A stretch of 64,000 nt of DNA from assembly GCA_002699365.1 (NCBI GenBank), contig PAAN01000021.1:6416-70415 (forward strand). The letters run 5' to 3'. Below the pieces are notes generated by a model. That model was given only the letters and a program-made list of their open reading frames with translations, had not been told where the DNA came from and ran no database searches. Below, piece by piece: positions 31,996-55,703 of the stretch; position 1 is the first letter of the stretch, and each line of letters begins with the position of its first letter. The position numbers and the translations under genes were made by a program. The DNA is from Coraliomargarita sp. GTDB taxonomy: Bacteria > Verrucomicrobiota > Verrucomicrobiia > Opitutales > Coraliomargaritaceae.

Positions 31996-32081
<86 letters not shown>

Positions 32082-32082
32082 C

Positions 32083-32916
32083 TTAATCAGGTCTCTTAAA
32101 CATCCAAGGCATAACTCCCTTGTTAACCTCAACACTCTCTATAACAGTTTCCCGTATAAACGCATCATTAGTGTACAATTTACTGCTAAAGGCTATCATA
32201 AGACCCGATACATTCTTGAAGTCCGATTGCTCTATATACCTCTTAGTGCCATCAACCCTAAGTGATTGCTCCGCTACTTGATGACGATTTGAGTCCAAAA
32301 AATAAAGATAGTACTGTTGATTAGGTAGGACTACTTTAGTCTGAATACATATTTTATCATCTATTGTGGCAGCTTCAAGAATCTCTATCGTTTTACCAGG
32401 TAGCAATGGCCATACTAAATGACCACCAAACCAAGAGTCACGTATAAAGTCTATAGAAGCATCCAATGACATTGTCTTGGATATTTCCGACTCAAAGGTT
32501 TTAATTTGCCAAGCTTCGACTCCATCGAAGCAAGTGATAATTCTCTCATTATTACCAACATATATGATAGACTTATTTAAGTCAGGCCTCTTTCTGTAGT
32601 TAACGAAGCGGTAGTACTTACCGTTAGGGTATATTAACATACCCTTAATACACAGGCTCTTTATTTTCTGCCAGCTTTCTGCACCACCTAGACTATTTCT
32701 ATAGTAGCTTTGTAGTGTATCGCTAACTTTCTGACTAAGCCCCTTGGTATCCATCGGATCTGGCAAAACCGTCTCCTCGTTAACGAGTAGGTCAGCGTAC
32801 CGGTAGGGCTTAATGGTCTTTTCAGAAGACCACAAAAGCGCAGTTAGCCAAAAAAGGCTAATGAAAAGTACATATGCAAGCCTTGTACCCATTACTAATA
32901 GGAACATAAGCTCCAA
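32083..32916 (-). CDS. hypothetical exported/membrane-anchored protein
   Basis: 277-aa ORF with a hydrophobic N-terminus and no family I recognise. Its stop abuts the tRNA-Leu 3' end. Confidence 0.5.
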   Translation of the reverse strand: MELMFLLVMGTRLAYVLFISLFWLTALLWSSEKTIKPYRYADLLVNEETVLPDPMDTKGLSQKVSDTLQSYYRNSLGGAESWQKIKSLCIKGMLIYPNGKYYRFVNYRKRPDLNKSIIYVGNNERIITCFDGVEAWQIKTFESEISKTMSLDASIDFIRDSWFGGHLVWPLLPGKTIEILEAATIDDKICIQTKVVLPNQQYYLYFLDSNRHQVAEQSLRVDGTKRYIEQSDFKNVSGLMIAFSSKLYTNDAFIRETVIESVEVNKGVMPWMFKRPD

Positions 32917-33242: not shown

Positions 33243-33716
33243 CTAAATTACACTAATCTCCCGCCTGCGAAGAGCCACAAGCCCAAGGGCTAGCCCTCCA
33301 AGAAGCAGTGCGTAACTGGAAGATTCTGGTATAATATTGAATGTACCATTCATTGATGGGTGAACATTACATACATAAGTTTTGGTATATGTGCTGTAAT
33401 CCGTACTAGTATCGAGTGTAAATGATTGTGAACCTCTAAAACTTAAATTATTAATTAAATTTGTAGTGTTACCTTGTGAGTCAGTAATATACATTCTGAA
33501 AGGGTGTGAGGTATTGTTGCCAGTAAAAGTATACTCAATGCCAGTAAGCAAGCTATCTGAACCACTGTTAGTAAAGTTAAAATCAGTGACACCATCATTA
33601 ATGCTGAAACTATAAAATGGGTCATCAAAACCAGAAGTGTTCACTAATACATCCACAGCAAAAGAACTTAAGGAAGTGAGTAAAAAAAGAGGGAAGAAGT
33701 AATAGCGAGAATTCAT
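33243..33716 (-). CDS. small PEP-CTERM-type sorting-domain secreted protein
   Basis: 157 aa; signal peptide and C-terminal IPESSSYALLLGGLALGLVALRRR (PEP-like motif, TM helix, Arg cluster). Confidence 0.7.
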   Translation of the reverse strand: MNSRYYFFPLFLLTSLSSFAVDVLVNTSGFDDPFYSFSINDGVTDFNFTNSGSDSLLTGIEYTFTGNNTSHPFRMYITDSQGNTTNLINNLSFRGSQSFTLDTSTDYSTYTKTYVCNVHPSMNGTFNIIPESSSYALLLGGLALGLVALRRREISVI

Positions 33717-34019
33717 AACGTAAACATAAAGGTATTAACTAAAAAAAACAACACATAGTTAAAGATTTTACAGTAATTTTAGTAGAAAAATACCAACTAT
33801 TTTTCACCAATTTAGAAATTAACATTTATTAATGACTTATTCACAACGTAAATAACTGATATGCATCTATTTTCGTAGTTATTAACAATAAATACATAAG
33901 TTATTAACTTTCAATTATTTATGAATTTAATTGTTGACCTTAATGCTTTTTCTAACAATTTTATTTGCTTACCTTAATTGGTATGTGATCTTTGACAGAA
34001 GCGATAAAAGTTAGTGATG

Positions 34020-34996
34020 CAGCAATGCATTAACTAATGCATTATCTCGATAAAGTCCGATTAGTTTCGGAAAATGGTCGGGCGAAGCTAGCATTCCCGG
34101 CCCCTACTTTTATAACACTTCGGTGCTATATGTGGTAGGCACATGTCACCTACTTCCACAGAGGGTTCGTTTACCTTCTGCGTTTAACGATTTGGATGTA
34201 GGCGGTGAGCATTTGCTTAAGAGCTCAGTATATTGAGTCGCTTTAGCACGAACCCTTTGCCCACCGAGTTATGTAGTTATAAACAGGGTTCATTTGTTTA
34301 TGATTACAAACACAGTCGGTCTTAGACCGGTAGTTGTTACTGTGAGCTAGTATGGAGTTATGATTTAGTGGTAAGACAAAGGTACAACCACTCGATCCTG
34401 ATGGTTTCGCAACCTATTAGGGGAAAAAGAATCGTTGCTCTGTGGATTGAACATACTGAGTTGAGACAACGGGCGGCCGTTGGCGAACGCTTTATGTAAT
34501 AATATTCGATTAGCGGGAGGTTTTAACAGAATCGTTCGCCTGAGTAAATAATGCAACTTGCGGGATAAGAGACAAGACCCGTGGTGTAAGGCAAACGACT
34601 GACTCTTGTAGCAGTGCCGACCTTATGCTAAGATTACTAACAATTCATCTCAGTATTGTAAGAAATCGTGTTCGCGGTGTATATATTAGCAGATATGTAT
34701 GTTGCGAGCAGAGAAGTCTCACCCTAAGCGTATCTGATGGTAACATCAGTTACTGGTTCCGCTACGGAACCTTATAGTTAGAATCGTCTTACTAACTAGC
34801 GTAGCGTCGGGGAACTGGCAGCCACATCATTCGACGGATGGGATGGCGCCTAATGCCAGTGCAACGAGGAAAGAGAACGTGGCGAGTTCCCACTCCTCAC
34901 CTTTTTATTACATCTTCGGATGCTAGTAATTAGATAGTATCGTAATTCATACGTGAGTGGCGATCGGCCCGTAGACTAATAGTCTACGGGTTTTTT
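34020..34996 (+). ncRNA. candidate large structured non-coding RNA, class unassigned
   Basis: About 1 kb with no credible ORF on either strand. It is richer in G+C than the flanking AT-rich spacer and contains many hairpins and long-range helices. It has two C(UUCG)G loops and one GUAA loop, all only in the + orientation, and ends at a 10-bp stem plus T6 terminator. The 5' end is uncertain. Confidence 0.6.
34968..34996 (+). terminator. Rho-independent terminator (+ strand)
   Basis: cccgtagact-aat-agtctacggg is a perfect 10-bp stem followed by tttttt. On the minus strand the hairpin has no trailing U tract. Confidence 0.85.
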
Positions 34997-35026
34997 GTGT
35001 CTACATTGCTGATAGGATTGAAAGGA

Positions 35027-36385
35027 CTACCTTTGATAATTGCGTCTACCGCTTGAGGTGCGCTCACTGCTACCACCATTACCTCCAGCACCACTTCGAA
35101 ACGGCTTTCCGCGTTTATTAGCAGTACGATTGGGTCGTCCTCGTGAGCGACTTCCTGCACTAGCTCCGGATCTTCTGCCTTGTGCGGGCTTTTTCACAGG
35201 TCGTTTACTGGTGTGCAGATCCTCTACCTCTTGCAAATGATAGTCATGATCCCGTTTAACTGGTATGGGCTTTTTGATCAATCGCTCCACTTGGCGCAGT
35301 AAGGCGACCTCTTCTTCTGTGCAGAAACTAATTGCCTGACCGCTCTTACCGGCACGCGCGGTACGCCCTATACGGTGCACATACGCATCCGGTTCCATTG
35401 GTAAATCATAGTTTACTACTAATGTAATATTTTTTACATCGATTCCGCGTGCAGCTACATCAGTCGCTACTAATATATCAATTTCTCCTTGGCGGTACCG
35501 ATCGAGTGTCTTCTCACGAGCGGATTGTGATTTATTGCCATGAATAGAATCTGCGCTCAGACCTTCTTGAATAAACTTTTTAGCTAAATTTTTTGCACCA
35601 TGTTTAGTTCGTGTAAAAATAAGGCTTAACTCTTCTTGGTTATCATCAAAACGACGATGTAACATGTCTAAAATCAACTTTTGCTTAGCATTTTTTCCAA
35701 GGAATAGGACCTGTTGGTCAACTTTTTCCGCTGTCGAACCTTGCGGGGCGATACGAACTTCATCTGGCTTGTATAGCATAGCCTGTCCTAGCTTGGTAAT
35801 CTCTGTCGCCATAGTAGCTGAAAAAAGCAGGGTCTGACGTTTTTTTGGCAATTTGCTTTCGATTTTACGGATGTCACGAATAAATCCCATATCTAGCATA
35901 CGGTCAGCCTCATCGAGTATAAATGTCTCGACCTGAGAGAGGTCGACATGTCCCTGATCCATTAGATCGATCAAACGACCTGGACAGGCGACCAGTACAT
36001 CTAGACCTTGAAAGAGCTGCTTAATTTGAGGCTTCTCTGAGACACCTCCATATACCAAACCGGTACTAAATTTTATGTACTTACCGTAAATTTTAAAACT
36101 ATCTGCTACTTGGCCAGCTAATTCTCGAGTCGGCGTGAGCACAAGGTGGCGCACACCCCGGCGAAAAGGCTTGCGCCCGCACGAGGCGATATTGTGCAGT
36201 AGCGGTAAAGCAAAAGCCGCGGTCTTACCAGTACCGGTTTGTGCACAGGCAAGTAAATCTCCCCCTTTAAGTAGCAGTGGTATCGCCTTCGCTTGAATCG
36301 GTGAAGGCTTCGTGTAACCCCTTTCGCTCAAGGCGCGTTGAATCGGTGCGGACAGCTCTAGCTGCTCGAATTTACGTTCGTTCAT
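35027..36385 (-). CDS. DEAD-box ATP-dependent RNA helicase (RhlE-like) with an Arg/Gly-rich C-terminal tail
   Basis: 452 aa; Q motif, AQTGTGKT, DEAD, SAT and HRIGRTARAG motifs, and a basic RG-rich tail. Confidence 0.9.
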   Translation of the reverse strand: MNERKFEQLELSAPIQRALSERGYTKPSPIQAKAIPLLLKGGDLLACAQTGTGKTAAFALPLLHNIASCGRKPFRRGVRHLVLTPTRELAGQVADSFKIYGKYIKFSTGLVYGGVSEKPQIKQLFQGLDVLVACPGRLIDLMDQGHVDLSQVETFILDEADRMLDMGFIRDIRKIESKLPKKRQTLLFSATMATEITKLGQAMLYKPDEVRIAPQGSTAEKVDQQVLFLGKNAKQKLILDMLHRRFDDNQEELSLIFTRTKHGAKNLAKKFIQEGLSADSIHGNKSQSAREKTLDRYRQGEIDILVATDVAARGIDVKNITLVVNYDLPMEPDAYVHRIGRTARAGKSGQAISFCTEEEVALLRQVERLIKKPIPVKRDHDYHLQEVEDLHTSKRPVKKPAQGRRSGASAGSRSRGRPNRTANKRGKPFRSGAGGNGGSSERTSSGRRNYQR

Positions 36386-36589: not shown

Positions 36590-38056
36590 CTAAGCTTTAT
36601 CGATCAGCTGTTTCAATAAATCATCGAGCATAGCTGGGTTTGCTTTTCCCTTAGTCGCCTTCATGACTGGCCCTTTAAGCGCATTAAGCGCCTTAAGATT
36701 TCCTGCCCTATATTCTGACACCGCTTTTTCATTGCCCGCTATTGCCTCTCGGCACAACGATTCGATCTCTTCACTATCATTACTTTGCTTTAAACCCTTT
36801 GTTTTGACGATCACATCTGGCATAATACCAGTGTTAAACATCTCGGTAAATACCTCCTTGCCGATCTGTTTTGAAATGACGCCTGTATCAATAATTTTAG
36901 CAAGAGTCGCTATGTGCGCAGGTGTGAGTTTACAATCACTCACGCAGTGAGAGGATGCCCCGCGCGCAGAAGCATCTGCTAACTCGCGAAGTAAATCATT
37001 AGCTATGTAATTGGCGATTGCCTTTGGCGCAGCGTAAACTTCTAAAGCAGCCTCAAAAAACTCACTTAGCTGCAAATTCGGGCACAACACTGAAGTGATA
37101 GTGTAAGGTAAATCCAAATCCCCTTGGTAACGACGCTGCTTATCTAATGGACGCTCTGGCAACTGCGCATCCAACTGTTCGATCCGTTTAGGATCCATCT
37201 GTACAGGCATCAAATCTGGGTCTGGGAAATAACGATAGTCATGTGCTTCTTCTTTACTGCGCAAAGAAGAGCTGCTACTACTATCCACATCCCATCGACG
37301 AGTTTCTTGGACGATAACCCCACCCTCATCAAGTATCTGAGTTTGCCGAGCAATCTCATATTCGATCGCAGCTTTTACATTAGAAATAGAATTTAAGTTC
37401 TTCATTTCGGTCCGAGTACCGAGCGAATTGGTACCGACCGGACGCAAGGAAACATTCGCATCGCAGCGCATTTGACCCTTCTCCATATCGCAATCGGAAA
37501 TGCCGGCATAGATGATAAGATTACGTAGTGCATTAAGAAAGGCCACCGCTTCGGTAGAGTTCTGCATGTCTGGCTCAGTGACTATCTCGGCTAAAGGGAC
37601 TCCTGCCCGATTGAAGTCAATAACTGTATCAAACGCCTCGTGGGTCAGCTTACCAGGATCCTCCTCTAGATGAATCCGATTGAGTTGGACCCAGCGGTGT
37701 TCGCCCTCGATATTTCTCGATGGCCCAGGTAGTTCGATTTCGACCTTTCCACCAATGCACAGCGGTTGATCGTTTTGAGTTAACTGATAGTTCTTAGGTG
37801 AATCCGGATAGAAGTAATTTTTTCTATCCCATTTGCACTGCTCAGCAATAGCACACTGCAGCATGAGCCCTAATTGTGCGCATTTCTCAATCGCGAGGTG
37901 ATTGAGCACTGGCAAGGTACCAGGCAAGCCAAGTACCACGGGATCGGTTAGCGTATTTGGTTCTGCACCATAAACATAAGGCGCTGCTGTAAACATCTTC
38001 GTACGGGTCTTTATTTGTACGTGTACTTCAAGACCGATGACAGCTTCGTAAGACAT
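36590..38056 (-). CDS. gatB: Asp/Glu-tRNA amidotransferase subunit B
   Basis: Conserved N-terminus MSYEAVIGLEVHVQ starts at the ATG at 38056. The 48 extra codons in the track ORF overlap gatA and are probably not translated. Confidence 0.9.
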   Translation of the reverse strand: MSYEAVIGLEVHVQIKTRTKMFTAAPYVYGAEPNTLTDPVVLGLPGTLPVLNHLAIEKCAQLGLMLQCAIAEQCKWDRKNYFYPDSPKNYQLTQNDQPLCIGGKVEIELPGPSRNIEGEHRWVQLNRIHLEEDPGKLTHEAFDTVIDFNRAGVPLAEIVTEPDMQNSTEAVAFLNALRNLIIYAGISDCDMEKGQMRCDANVSLRPVGTNSLGTRTEMKNLNSISNVKAAIEYEIARQTQILDEGGVIVQETRRWDVDSSSSSSLRSKEEAHDYRYFPDPDLMPVQMDPKRIEQLDAQLPERPLDKQRRYQGDLDLPYTITSVLCPNLQLSEFFEAALEVYAAPKAIANYIANDLLRELADASARGASSHCVSDCKLTPAHIATLAKIIDTGVISKQIGKEVFTEMFNTGIMPDVIVKTKGLKQSNDSEEIESLCREAIAGNEKAVSEYRAGNLKALNALKGPVMKATKGKANPAMLDDLLKQLIDKA

Positions 38057-38108
38057 GTTAGTAACAATTAGTAAGTTTAGTGTACAGCAAATTGGACAAA
38101 GAGAACCG

Positions 38109-39575
38109 CTATAATTTTGGCGTTTGCTGGTAATAATCGTGAGCCTGTTCAAACGCGTGTGCAACAGCGAACATATCGGCCTCTCCAAAAGCTGGCGCAA
38201 TTACTTGCAAACCTATAGGCAAGCCAGCTTTGGTAAAACCACTGGGCACAGAAATAGCTGGAAGTCCGGCTAGATTAACTGAAATTGTGTAGATATCACT
38301 TAGATACATCGAAAGTGGATCATCACTGCGCTCACCGCGCTTAAATGCTGGAGTCGGTGAAGTCGGAGTCAATATCGCGTCTACTTGCTCAAAAGCATTT
38401 TCGAAATCATTACGAATTAAAGTGCGTACTTTTTGAGCACGCAAATAATAGGCATCATAATATCCAGAACTCAAAACGTAGGTACCTAATATAATACGAC
38501 GCTTCACTTCTTCTCCGAATCCCTCACCTCGACTCTTGGTAAATAAAGAGACCGCATCATCTGCCGCAGCACTACGATGACCGTAACGAACTCCATCAAA
38601 GCGGGCCAAATTTGAGGACGCCTCTGCGGTAGCGACAATATAATAGACCGGTACAGCTAAGTCAGAATGTGGAAGGGATATGTCAATAATCGCACAACCT
38701 TGGGAGCGGTACCATTCGATGGCTTTTTCTATATTTGCCTTTACTTCTGGGTCGATTCCCTTGCCAAAAAATTCGCGCGGAACACCGAGTTTCCATGGAC
38801 CCTTTTTTTTCTGTAAGGCTTGTACATAATGTGTGTCCCCTTGTGGCCGTATTGAGGTAGAATCTAGTACATCTTTTCCAAGCATCGCCTCCATCAGCAG
38901 CGCGGCATCTTCAACACAGCGAGTAAAAGGTCCCACTTGATCTAATGAAGATGCAAAGGCTACGAGCCCATAACGAGAGATAAGTCCGTAAGTAGGCTTC
39001 ATGCCAACCACACCACAAAGTGCAGCTGGCTGTCGAATTGATCCCCCCGTATCTGTACCTAAGGTAGCAATTGCTTCTCCTGCTGCCATAGCAGCTGCAC
39101 TACCTCCGGAAGATCCGCCCGGTATAGAGCCTAAATCCCATGGATTGGAAGTGGTTTGGTACGCTGAATTCTCGGTCGACGAACCCATAGCAAACTCATC
39201 CATGTTTAAACGACCGAATATAACTGCCCCCGCATCACGAAGTTGGCGTATGCAGGTAGCATCAAATGGTGAGGTGTACGATTCCAGCATCTTCGATGCG
39301 CAGCGTAGCGGTTGATCTTTGACTGCTAATGTATCTTTAATTGCAATGGGAATACCATCTAATGGGCCGAAAGTACTGCCTTGTGCTCGCCGCTCATCAG
39401 AGGCCTGCGCCTGAGCGATAGCATCGACTGCATCCAAAGAAAGGAAAGCCTGCACTTGGTCATCGACTGCTTTAATACGATCTAGTACCGCTTGCGTGAC
39501 TTCGACCGAGGTTGTTTCGCCTACTTTTAGCGAGTGTGCAATCTGAGCAATAGTGTTGTAGTGTAAAGGAGGCAT
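38109..39575 (-). CDS. gatA: Asp/Glu-tRNA amidotransferase subunit A
   Basis: 488 aa; amidase signature GGSSGGSAAA...GTDTGGSIRQPA. Confidence 0.9.
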   Translation of the reverse strand: MPPLHYNTIAQIAHSLKVGETTSVEVTQAVLDRIKAVDDQVQAFLSLDAVDAIAQAQASDERRAQGSTFGPLDGIPIAIKDTLAVKDQPLRCASKMLESYTSPFDATCIRQLRDAGAVIFGRLNMDEFAMGSSTENSAYQTTSNPWDLGSIPGGSSGGSAAAMAAGEAIATLGTDTGGSIRQPAALCGVVGMKPTYGLISRYGLVAFASSLDQVGPFTRCVEDAALLMEAMLGKDVLDSTSIRPQGDTHYVQALQKKKGPWKLGVPREFFGKGIDPEVKANIEKAIEWYRSQGCAIIDISLPHSDLAVPVYYIVATAEASSNLARFDGVRYGHRSAAADDAVSLFTKSRGEGFGEEVKRRIILGTYVLSSGYYDAYYLRAQKVRTLIRNDFENAFEQVDAILTPTSPTPAFKRGERSDDPLSMYLSDIYTISVNLAGLPAISVPSGFTKAGLPIGLQVIAPAFGEADMFAVAHAFEQAHDYYQQTPKL

Positions 39576-55499: not shown

Positions 55500-55603
55500 A
55501 CTTTTTATATAGAGCGACTAATCATAGTTACTGGCAAGTGACTTTTTATAGTACAGGGACCAGTAAAGGGAGAATAAGAAAAAAATAATTAAACTATATT
55601 AAA

Positions 55604-55703
55604 GTGGCCAGGCACCCTACGGCACATACCGTTCAAACTACCGCTGCTCCCTTCCGGGCCTGACGGGGTTCGCCTGTCCAGCATTGCATAGGACCCGGCC
55701 TCC
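55604..55703 (-). ncRNA. ffs: signal recognition particle RNA (small, 4.5S type)
   Basis: The minus strand contains GUCAGGCCCGGAAGGGAGCAGC (domain IV consensus), flanked by complementary arms GGCCGGGUCCUA / UAGGGUGCCUGGCC. Its position directly upstream of dnaX is a classic arrangement. Ends are accurate to about +/-5 nt. Confidence 0.85.

What the first reader, a model, noticed from the sequence alone, without database searches (positions are those of the whole stretch)
34020..34996. Unassigned ~1 kb structured RNA candidate ending in a strong terminator
The gap 33717..35026 between two minus-strand genes has no credible ORF. Its left ~300 bp is extremely AT-rich. From about 34020 the composition becomes visibly more G+C-rich and packed with helices.

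Hairpins I can read directly:
- 34024..34043: aatgcatt-aact-aatgcatt.
- 34056..34071: tccga/tcgga.
- 34076..34102: ggtcggg/cccggcc, 7 bp, with a U-G wobble that only works on the + strand.
- 34116..34125: C(UUCG)G tetraloop.
- 34131..34160: bulged 5+4 bp hairpin.
- 34317..34329: cggtc/gaccg.
- 34467..34482: caacgg/ccgttg.
- 34734..34749: 6-bp stem with a GUAA (GNRA) loop.
- 34755..34771: 7-bp stem.
- 34911..34922: second C(UUCG)G tetraloop.

Long-range helices:
- agggttcg 34162..34169 with cgaaccct 34249..34256.
- ggcgaacg 34482..34489 with cgttcgcc 34533..34540.
- ctggca 34815..34820 with tgccag 34854..34859.
- gggaa (about 34810) with ttccc (about 34887).

The UUCG and GNRA loops and the wobble pair fix the orientation as + strand. 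The element ends at a 10-bp stem plus U6 terminator (34968..34996), the only textbook intrinsic terminator I could spot in 64 kb. I see no RNase P, tmRNA, 6S, SRP, rRNA or group II domain-V signature.

The size and ornateness fall in the range of the rare giant bacterial ncRNAs (GOLLD, ROOL, OLE). I cannot assign it to any of them by eye, so it may be a new class or a divergent member.
Basis: partly seen in the sequence, partly recalled or inferred. Interest (0 to 1): 0.85.

Follow-up and report, generated by a model that had tools for sequence, protein, structure and literature searches.

The report
Known MISL large noncoding RNA gene
The 1-kb gene-free gap holds the gene for MISL RNA, a large, intricately folded RNA of unknown function that is already catalogued and occurs across Verrucomicrobiota bacteria, so it is a real RNA but not a new class.

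Summary
Window 34049..34890 (+) is a full-length match to Rfam family MISL (RF03079): 297.9 bits against a gathering score of 274.6, E 7e-88. 158 of 175 model pairs are canonical. On 66 homologues the structure shows strong covariation: 73% paired against 35-46% for slid controls. The terminator at 34968..34996 is real and is the only strict one in the 64 kb. No ORF, Pfam hit or 3-nt periodicity supports a pseudogene.

It is a large ornate bacterial RNA on the + strand. It is not a new class, nor a GOLLD, ROOL or OLE relative.

The window comes from a marine Puniceicoccaceae-like bacterium. A metagenome contig is 100% identical over the core.

Details that may be new:
- The RNA extends beyond the Rfam model. 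At the 5' end there is a phylum-wide box and a covarying hairpin. At the 3' end there is a closing helix. The predicted transcript is about 33968..34996.
- DnaA-box consensus sites are strongly enriched upstream of MISL genes: 49 observed against 0.56 expected.

The function remains unknown.

The parts
33837..33845 (+). Exact DnaA-box consensus TTATTCACA in the 22% GC stretch upstream of the RNA gene.
   Evidence: It is one of only two exact TTATNCACA matches in the 64 kb. Such boxes are enriched upstream of MISL genes in 66 loci: 49 observed against 0.56 expected from composition, and 0 in a downstream control. Binding by DnaA is inferred, not shown.
33879..33887 (+). Second DnaA-box-like site TTATTAACA, one mismatch from consensus.
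   Evidence: L054 carries an exact TTATTCACA at the corresponding offset from the RNA start (-170).
33934..33964 (+). Predicted sigma-70-type promoter: -35 TTGACC at 33934-39, a 17-19 nt spacer, and an A/T-rich -10 at 33957-64.
   Evidence: All 11 clade relatives show the same layout: a -35 (mostly TTGACN), about 17 nt, a TTnnAT-like hexamer, then 6-7 nt to the 5' hairpin (read by eye). The consensus scanner did not call it. This is inferred.
33967..33986 (+). 5' hairpin H0, specific to this clade. It marks the probable start of the primary transcript, with the TSS near 33968 +/- 3.
   Evidence: RNAalifold predicts it, and 4 of 5 pairs change on both sides across 24 clade sequences; 85.7% paired. 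Local fold. Three ~1-kb metagenome contigs begin 21-28 nt before the box, at or just upstream of this hairpin.
33987..34001 (+). Conserved 5' box GATCTTTGACAGAAG. The form elsewhere in the phylum is GTTCnTTGAnAGAAC.
   Evidence: A box is found 25-70 nt (mostly 45-48) upstream of the Rfam model start in 62 of 66 homologues. Columns 30-40 of A2 are invariant. Outside this clade, a TAnnnT hexamer ends 6-7 nt before the box in 34 of 49 loci, so there the box is the 5' end of the transcript.
34003..34046 (+).
   Evidence: The inner 5 pairs covary in the clade, e.g. AU13/GC7/GU2 and AU9/GC5/GU4/UA3. Phylum-wide, the ends of the segment pair better with their own partner (6.4 bp) than with other sequences' partners (4.7 +/- 0.14; maximum of 200 permutations 5.08). 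Fold.
34049..34890 (+). MISL RNA core (Rfam RF03079, model positions 1-751).
   Evidence: 297.9 bits against gathering 274.6, E 7e-88, not truncated. 158 of 175 model pairs are canonical. Covariation on 66 sequences: 73.3% paired against 35-46% slid; 148 of 175 pairs change on both sides; 0 of 500 shuffles reach the observed value.
34213..34255 (+). Lineage-specific expansion of the loop of helix 34203-13/34256-66.
   Evidence: Shown as an insertion relative to the Rfam consensus. Present at similar length only in the clade of Puniceicoccaceae/Akkermansiaceae-type sequences.
34457..34491 (+). Lineage-specific insertion in helix 34443-56/34492-508. It carries the hairpin 34467-72/34477-82.
   Evidence: Insertion in the cmscan alignment. 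The hairpin is 90% paired with compensatory types in 12 clade sequences.
34866..34898 (+). 3' closing helix GAGGA 34866-70 with UCCUC 34894-98. It encloses the last Rfam hairpin, and its 3' strand lies outside the Rfam model.
   Evidence: RNAalifold on 18 clade sequences gives AU10/GC7/GU1 at the second pair. RNAalifold recovers the same helix on the phylum-wide set of 51 sequences, and GGG/CCC is seen in nearly all sequences listed. Fold.
34901..34964 (+). Clade-specific 3' extension with two hairpins: 34905-14/34919-29, which includes the C(UUCG)G, and 34939-49/34954-64.
   Evidence: Local MFE z-score -4.1. The first hairpin shows compensatory variants among relatives, e.g. AUC/GAU, GCC/GGC, CCC/GGG (alignment, read by eye). 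Other lineages have only 13-16 nt here.
34966..34998 (+). Intrinsic terminator: stem 34966-77/34981-92 (perfect core 34968-77/34981-90) followed by a T-run.
   Evidence: 34 of 66 homologues have a stem plus T-run within 110 nt of the Rfam 3' end. The stem covaries in the clade.

Best explanation
This is the MISL RNA gene (Rfam RF03079) of an uncultured marine Puniceicoccaceae-like bacterium (Verrucomicrobiota).

Shown:
- A full-length covariance-model match above the curated threshold.
- A conserved multi-helix fold supported by covariation in 66 homologues.
- + strand orientation.
- An intrinsic terminator.
- No coding signal.

Inferred from comparison:
- It is its own transcription unit of about 1.03 kb. 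A sigma-70-type promoter sits at 33934-33964 and the start is near 33968.
- The transcript runs through a 5' hairpin, a phylum-wide 5' box and a stem-loop that the Rfam model lacks, then the 842-nt core.
- A 3' closing helix and two clade-specific hairpins follow, and the transcript ends at 34996.

Mechanism (inference; the literature available here gives no function): a chromosomal, vertically inherited, trans-acting housekeeping RNA. Its many invariant unpaired nucleotides and GNRA loops suggest a compact tertiary fold. That fold most likely serves as the core of a ribonucleoprotein or as a catalytic or ligand-binding RNA, rather than as a base-pairing regulator or a cis leader. I put this general mode at about 0.5. 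I put the idea that conserved DnaA boxes couple its synthesis to replication status at about 0.3.
For: Identity:
- 297.9 bits against 274.6, model positions 1-751.
- 158 of 175 pairs canonical.
- covariation 0.316 against 0.06-0.14 for slid controls.
- 16 of 18 sampled homologous loci are full-length MISL above threshold, at the coordinates used.

Taxonomy:
- 75 of the 80 MISL-bearing loci are labelled as Verrucomicrobiota.
- The closest is Puniceicoccaceae MAG L054, 87% identical.
- L121 is 100% identical over the core.

Stand-alone gene:
- The gene downstream (a DEAD-box helicase) is convergent, and the terminator lies between them.
- The window's neighbours are not conserved beyond L054.
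- Terminators follow the RNA in 34 of 66 loci.
- A -10 hexamer sits at a fixed 6-7 nt before the 5' box in 34 of 49 loci.

Extensions beyond the Rfam model.

Expression hint: at least 11 metagenome contigs of 1.0-1.2 kb begin 2-28 nt before the 5' box. Those whose 3' part could be located end in or just before, and in two cases just after, the terminator. This is the pattern expected of assembled transcripts.

Compact fold: 60 invariant and about 130 nearly invariant columns across the phylum. Against L054, unpaired positions change less than paired ones, 0.110 against 0.151 per nt.

DnaA boxes.
Against: - There are no expression, end-mapping or functional data for this organism. I could not confirm that the ~1-kb contigs come from metatranscriptomes.
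- The score is only 23 bits above the gathering threshold, and the window's clade is at the low end of the family (277-354 bits against 447-581 elsewhere).
- 17 of 175 model pairs are non-canonical here.
- The promoter was read by eye; the scanner did not call it.
- The functional mode is inference by analogy. Nothing here separates RNP scaffold, ribozyme and protein sponge.
- The enrichment count for DnaA boxes is inflated by relatedness among loci, and DnaA binding is untested.
Confidence: 0.9

Rival explanations
1. It is a new class of giant bacterial ncRNA, or a divergent GOLLD, ROOL or OLE member.
For: It is about 1 kb long, has many helices and has UUCG and GNRA loops. No GOLLD, ROOL or OLE hit was found, which would fit a new class.
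Against: It matches the existing Rfam family MISL full length above the curated threshold. The same model finds 16 of 18 sampled relatives. No hit to GOLLD, ROOL, OLE or raiA appears at E<=1.
Confidence: 0.02
2. It is a decayed protein-coding gene whose apparent helices are chance.
For: A long gene-free gap between two genes could be a dead gene. Small ORFs of 30-63 aa exist on both strands.
Against: - The small ORFs have no Pfam hit at E<=1.
- Substitutions against L054 fall 40/30/37 over the three phases, so there is no periodicity.
- 148 of 175 pairs show changes on both sides.
- The sequence is conserved across a phylum while its flanks are not.
Confidence: 0.01
3. It is a cis-acting leader or an antisense regulator of a neighbouring gene (DEAD-box helicase, or the 157-aa ORF).
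For: The 3' end lies 30 nt from the stop of the convergent helicase gene at 35027..36385. In Verrucomicrobiales/Pedosphaerales-type loci, cysK and rho follow on the same strand.
Against: - In the window no gene follows on the + strand, and a strong terminator ends the RNA.
- The window's neighbours are not kept in other lineages.
- Where cysK follows, many loci have a terminator between it and the RNA.
- An 840-nt conserved core is far larger than known leaders.
Confidence: 0.03
4. The locus is, or belongs to, the chromosomal replication origin. On this reading the AT-rich stretch with DnaA boxes is oriC and the RNA is an origin-associated transcript.
For: - A 22% GC stretch carries an exact DnaA box.
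- Boxes are enriched phylum-wide upstream of MISL.
- Genes flank the RNA divergently in 22 syntenic loci.
Against: - There is no GC-skew turn at 34 kb, and genes to the right of the RNA are on the - strand.
- Across 66 loci gene orientation is not origin-like: upstream 102-/76+, downstream 68+/65-; in non-syntenic loci 51/51 and 23+/51-.
- No locus shows more than three exact boxes.
- dnaA and dnaN were not among the recurring neighbour clusters.
Confidence: 0.05
5. It is a phage- or mobile-element-borne RNA like GOLLD and ROOL.
For: Two IMG/VR contigs (L149, L160) carry MISL landmarks. A tRNA-Leu gene lies 2 kb upstream in the window.
Against: - Those two contigs are only 2.2-2.4 kb. The other 16 viral pattern matches are chance, with no landmarks.
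- Neighbours are housekeeping genes: gatA/B, lepA, cysE, fabD here; M23 peptidase, cysK, rho and smc elsewhere.
- The RNA is found across essentially one phylum, with conserved synteny within orders. That pattern fits vertical inheritance.
Confidence: 0.02

Closest known systems
MISL RNA (Rfam RF03079)
   Same: Full-length match above the gathering score, all 24 model helices present, 90% of pairs canonical, all phylum-wide invariant nucleotides present, and a Verrucomicrobiota host. It is a member.
   Different: - It belongs to a low-scoring clade (277-354 bits). It has an A+T-rich sequence (45% GC against 50-69% in most relatives).
- It has two insertions of about 40 nt, an extra 5' hairpin and a 50-80 nt 3' extension.
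- In the window and its relatives, conserved structure continues beyond both ends of the Rfam model.
- Its original description could not be read here. The main text of Weinberg et al. 2017 (PMC5737381) does not name it and the supplement is not held. From my own knowledge, it is one of that study's 224 motifs.
OLE RNA
   Same: A large, ornate, chromosomally encoded RNA restricted to one bacterial lineage. Its function was not evident from sequence (own knowledge; PMC12286853 abstract).
   Different: No sequence or structure match. From my own knowledge, OLE is found in extremophilic/anaerobic Firmicutes and sits in an operon with its protein partners. MISL is a separate transcription unit with no constant protein-gene neighbour.
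GOLLD and ROOL RNAs
   Same: Size class and structural complexity. Function unknown.
   Different: No covariance-model match. GOLLD and ROOL are often in prophages and next to tRNAs (PMC5737381) and form RNA-only homo-oligomers (PMC12286853). MISL is chromosomal and confined to essentially one phylum, and only 2 short viral-collection contigs carry it. Whether MISL oligomerises is untested.
RNase P RNA and other universal housekeeping structured RNAs (analogy only)
   Same: A vertically inherited, stand-alone gene with its own promoter and terminator. It has an invariant single-stranded core, variable peripheral helices and lineage-specific insertions.
   Different: No RNase P, tmRNA, SRP or 6S match in this region. 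It is restricted to one phylum. No catalytic activity or partner protein is known.

Membership tests
MISL RNA (RF03079) | Covariance-model score at or above Rfam's gathering threshold (274.6 bits). | tested here: met
   297.9 bits, E 7e-88. The same hit is found when only 33700-35100 is searched.
MISL RNA (RF03079) | Match covers the whole model, not a fragment. | tested here: met
   Model positions 1-751 of 751, not truncated. The 3' part was re-read.
MISL RNA (RF03079) | The consensus helices can form in this sequence. | tested here: met
   158 of 175 model pairs with residues on both sides are canonical, and every one of the 24 helices is present.
MISL RNA (RF03079) | The structure is supported by covariation among relatives that include this sequence. 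| tested here: met
   The sequence-only MAFFT alignment of 66 sequences gives 73.3% paired against 35-46% slid. 148 pairs change on both sides. 0 of 500 shuffles reach the observed value.
MISL RNA (RF03079) | Host lineage is Verrucomicrobiota. This distribution was observed here; I could not read the original description. | tested here: met
   75 of 80 MISL-bearing loci are labelled as Verrucomicrobiota lineages. The nearest relative of the window is a Puniceicoccaceae MAG.
GOLLD / ROOL / OLE / raiA | Match to the family covariance model. | tested here: not met
   With permissive filters and E<=1, only MISL and a chance L20-leader hit (E 0.32) were found in 33700-35100.
RNase P RNA, tmRNA, 6S, SRP RNA, group I/II introns | Match to the family covariance model in this region. 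| tested here: not met
   No hit in the region. ARAGORN finds no tmRNA. The window's SRP RNA is elsewhere, at 55603-55700.
Chromosomal replication origin (oriC) | A DnaA-box cluster with an AT-rich element at a switch of GC skew and gene orientation. | tested here: not met
   Boxes and an AT-rich stretch are present. There is no skew turn and no origin-like gene orientation, either here or across 66 loci.

The most novel reading that the evidence does not exclude
MISL is a DnaA-controlled housekeeping RNA. On this reading, the DnaA boxes kept upstream of its promoter across Verrucomicrobiota tie its synthesis to the replication-initiation state of the cell. The RNA would then act in chromosome replication or maintenance, or would feed back on DnaA. 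The family as catalogued is also truncated: the functional RNA includes a conserved 5'-terminal box, a 5' stem-loop and a 3' closing helix that the Rfam model lacks.
Probability: 0.12. Interest if true: 0.75.

Novelty: already known. Interest (0 to 1): 0.3.

Why it matters
As a discovery of a new RNA class it does not stand, because any Rfam annotation would label this locus MISL.

It still matters in a smaller way. MISL is one of the few bacterial RNAs of this size without a known function, and this analysis adds testable handles:
- Likely true transcript ends, including a 5'-terminal box conserved across the phylum.
- A fixed promoter geometry.
- Signs that it is abundant enough to be assembled from environmental RNA.
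- A strong, unexplained association with DnaA-box sequences.

The RNA also occurs in Akkermansia muciniphila, which can be grown and, from my own knowledge, genetically manipulated. The function question is therefore open to experiment.

Tried and rejected
1. Literature. Full-text searches for MISL found only the Ribonanza paper, which used MISL from Rfam as a chemical-mapping example. The main text of Weinberg 2017 does not name it and its supplement is not held. A review I tried by id is not held. Searches on Akkermansia ncRNA/TSS and on Verrucomicrobia oriC gave nothing usable.

2. Synteny with the window's own neighbours (DEAD helicase, GatB/A, the 157- and 277-aa ORFs). None is conserved beyond the closest MAG. 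No partner gene emerged.

3. oriC hypothesis. Rejected on skew and gene orientation.

4. 5'-3' end pairing. RNAalifold on the joined ends of 51 sequences found only the 3' closing helix. By-eye candidates for a partner of the 5' box did not hold across lineages.

5. Tested and not conserved.

6. Phage association. Essentially negative.

7. Pseudogene. No Pfam hit and no periodicity.

8. Two metagenome pattern hits (L122, L123) were chance matches in tRNA-like DNA. L122 was left in alignment A2, where it only adds noise.

Full report
WHAT IS THERE

The region between the minus-strand genes 33243..33716 (157 aa, no Pfam match) and 35027..36385 (DEAD-box helicase) has no ORF above 63 aa. Its left 300 bp are 22% G+C, and from 34000 the G+C rises to 42-52%.

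A scan of the whole window against Rfam 15 at gathering thresholds gave one hit here: MISL RNA, RF03079, at 34049..34890 on the + strand. It scored 297.9 bits against a curated cut-off of 274.6, with E 7e-88, covering model positions 1-751 of 751, not truncated. A permissive scan of 33700-35100 (E<=1) added only a chance L20-leader hit. It found nothing for GOLLD, ROOL, OLE, raiA, RNase P, tmRNA or introns.

CHECK OF THE STRUCTURE

I transcribed the cmscan alignment onto window coordinates. Of the 175 model pairs with residues on both sides, 158 are canonical, and all 24 helices are present.

The MFE of the 842-nt core is -283.6 kcal/mol (z = -5.4). The reverse complement reaches -235.0.

Of these, 80 carry further MISL landmarks, and 75 of the 80 are labelled as Verrucomicrobiota lineages. 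Rfam confirmed full-length MISL above threshold in 16 of 18 sampled loci, at the coordinates I had derived.

I aligned the window with 65 full-length homologues (716-1041 nt) using a sequence-only MAFFT alignment. The Rfam structure on that alignment gives:
- 73.3% of cells paired, against 35-46% when partners are slid.
- A covariation score of 0.316, against 0.06-0.14.
- 148 of 175 pairs with changes on both sides.
- 0 of 500 shuffles reaching the observed values.

Against the closest relative, substitutions show no 3-nt periodicity (40/30/37). Unpaired positions are more conserved than paired ones. None of the small ORFs hits Pfam. This is an RNA, not a pseudogene.

These coincide with Rfam helices, most of which covary (the 34111-16/34125-30 helix aligns poorly in A1):
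- 34056-71
- 34076-102
- 34116-25
- 34317-29
- 34734-49
- 34755-71
- 34815-20/34854-59

The hairpin 34467-82 sits in a clade-specific insertion and covaries within the clade.

These are not conserved:
- Hairpin 34131-60.
- 34162-69/34249-56, 42% paired. The MFE of this one sequence does form it, but relatives instead keep the local hairpin 34161-65/34174-78 at 92%.
- 34482-89/34533-40, 36% paired.
- gggaa/ttccc.

The terminator is real. Under strict criteria it is the only one in the 64 kb on either strand.

The + orientation is supported by three things:
- The strand of the Rfam hit.
- A U-G pair kept in 22 of 24 clade sequences.
- The energy difference between the strands.

SOURCE ORGANISM

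The nearest genome locus is L054, a Puniceicoccaceae MAG from station ALOHA. It is 87% identical over the RNA. It shares the 277-aa ORF at 69% aa identity and the Na+/H+ exchanger at 90%. A marine metagenome contig, L121 (MDSV01197265.1), is 100% identical over the core. Puniceicoccaceae belong to Opitutia, Verrucomicrobiota.

The window's clade scores lowest in the family, at 277-354 bits against 447-581. Likely reasons are its low G+C, its two ~40-nt insertions and its extended ends.

TRUE EXTENT OF THE RNA

5' end:
- A 15-nt box lies 25-70 nt (mostly 45-48) upstream of the Rfam start in 62 of 66 homologues. Its usual form is GTTCnTTGAnAGAAC. In the window it is GATCTTTGACAGAAG at 33987-34001.
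- The 25-70 nt between the box and the Rfam start form a stem-loop. Its closing helix covaries in the clade. Phylum-wide it does so too: the own-partner helix averages 6.4 bp against 4.7 +/- 0.14 for swapped partners.
- Outside the window's clade, a TAnnnT hexamer ends 6-7 nt before the box in 34 of 49 loci and almost nowhere else. There the box is the 5' terminus of the transcript.
- In the window's clade an extra covarying hairpin (window 33967-86) lies between a -35/-10 pair (33934-39, 33957-64) and the box.

3' end:
- G(A/G)GG at 34866-69 pairs with CC(U/C)C at 34895-98, just beyond the Rfam end, with an A-U/G-C exchange. RNAalifold recovers the same helix phylum-wide.
- In this clade, two further hairpins precede the terminator.

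The predicted primary transcript is therefore about 33968..34996, roughly 1.03 kb.

In support, a clade-specific pattern scan of metagenome contigs returned at least 11 contigs of 1.0-1.2 kb. Eight begin 2-9 nt before the box and three begin 21-28 nt before it. Those whose 3' part could be located stop in or just before, and in two cases just after, the terminator. Assemblies of an abundant transcript would look like this. I could not verify the sample types.

CONTEXT AND FUNCTION

The window's neighbours are not conserved.

In Verrucomicrobiales/Pedosphaerales-type loci there is order-level synteny:
- An M23 peptidase and a SecDF-P1-like lipoprotein lie upstream and divergent.
- cysK, rho, a WYL regulator and smc lie downstream on the same strand.
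None of these is constant across the phylum.

Phage association is essentially absent.

The unexpected feature is upstream. The DnaA-box consensus TTATNCACA occurs 49 times in the 17.6 kb upstream of 66 MISL genes. That compares with 7 in 482 kb of the rest of the same loci, 0.56 expected from the composition of those upstream regions, and 0 in a downstream control. The window has an exact box at 33837-45, one of two in the 64 kb, and a one-mismatch box at 33879-87.

This is not an origin. There is no skew turn, and gene orientation is not origin-like here or across loci. I read the boxes as promoter-associated sites. DnaA binding is untested.

No function for MISL could be found in the papers available. 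Its only mention is as a chemical-mapping example.

My best inference is a trans-acting, vertically inherited housekeeping RNA with a compact tertiary fold, acting as an RNP core or a catalytic or ligand-binding RNA. It rests on four points:
- Conservation across the phylum.
- 60 invariant columns, many of them unpaired.
- GNRA loops.
- A stand-alone promoter and terminator.

VERDICT

Noticed in passing
window 33837-33845 and 33879-33887; upstream regions of L003-L119: DnaA-box consensus sites are about 190-fold denser upstream of MISL genes than in the rest of the same loci: 49 observed, 0.56 expected from composition. 34 of 66 loci have at least one exact box. Orientation and distance differ between orders.
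   Followed up: partly
window 33987-34046; 62 of 66 homologous loci: A phylum-wide 15-nt box (GTTCnTTGAnAGAAC) and a covarying stem-loop lie upstream of the Rfam MISL model start. A -10-like hexamer sits at a fixed 6-7 nt before the box in 34 of 49 loci outside the window's clade. The catalogued family appears truncated at its 5' end.
   Followed up: yes
window 34866-34898: A closing helix pairs GGG before AAAGAG with CCC(C) just after the Rfam 3' end. It shows an A-U/G-C exchange between clades. Its 3' strand is outside the Rfam model.
   Followed up: yes
L120, L126, L130, L132-L135, L138, L139, L142, L143 (metagenome contigs): Contigs of 1003-1172 nt from many samples begin 2-28 nt before the 5' box. 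Where the 3' part could be located, they end in or near the terminator, as if they were assembled MISL transcripts. The two groups of start points (2-9 nt and 21-28 nt) could reflect a processed and a primary 5' end. Sample types were not checked.
   Followed up: partly
L121 (MDSV01197265.1): A 3.1-kb marine metagenome contig is identical to the window over the 842-nt core. It differs by one base in the terminator loop, so the source organism or a very close strain is present in public marine data.
   Followed up: partly
L027, L053, L061, L063: MISL-bearing contigs sit in assemblies labelled Stutzerimonas marianensis (an 858-bp scaffold) and Bifidobacterium/Bifidobacteriaceae MAGs. These are most likely contamination or mis-binned Verrucomicrobiota (for example Akkermansia) contigs.
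   Followed up: no
L003, L009, L033, L060, L073, L093, L097, L099, L102, L103, L111 and others: Order-level conserved neighbourhood around MISL. An aminotransferase, an M23 peptidase and a SecDF-P1-like lipoprotein lie upstream and divergent. cysK, rho, a WYL/WCX regulator and smc lie downstream on the same strand.
   Followed up: partly
window 55603-55700 (-), 31997-32081 (+); L002 5984-6080: The window also holds a small SRP RNA and a tRNA-Leu(TAG). In L002 the SRP RNA gene lies only about 430 nt upstream of MISL.
   Followed up: no
window 32083-32916 (-) and 33243-33716 (-): The two ORFs next to the RNA (277 aa and 157 aa) have no Pfam match. The 277-aa one is kept in L054 at 69% identity. 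The 157-aa one is absent there.
   Followed up: no
window 36590-38200 and 38109-39575 (-): The listed GatB ORF (TTG start) overlaps the end of the upstream amidase (GatA-like) ORF by 92 nt. The mechanical start is probably too far upstream.
   Followed up: no
L041, L111: Two loci with MISL landmarks fall below the Rfam gathering score. L111 lacks recognisable 5' helices. They may be divergent or rearranged copies.
   Followed up: no
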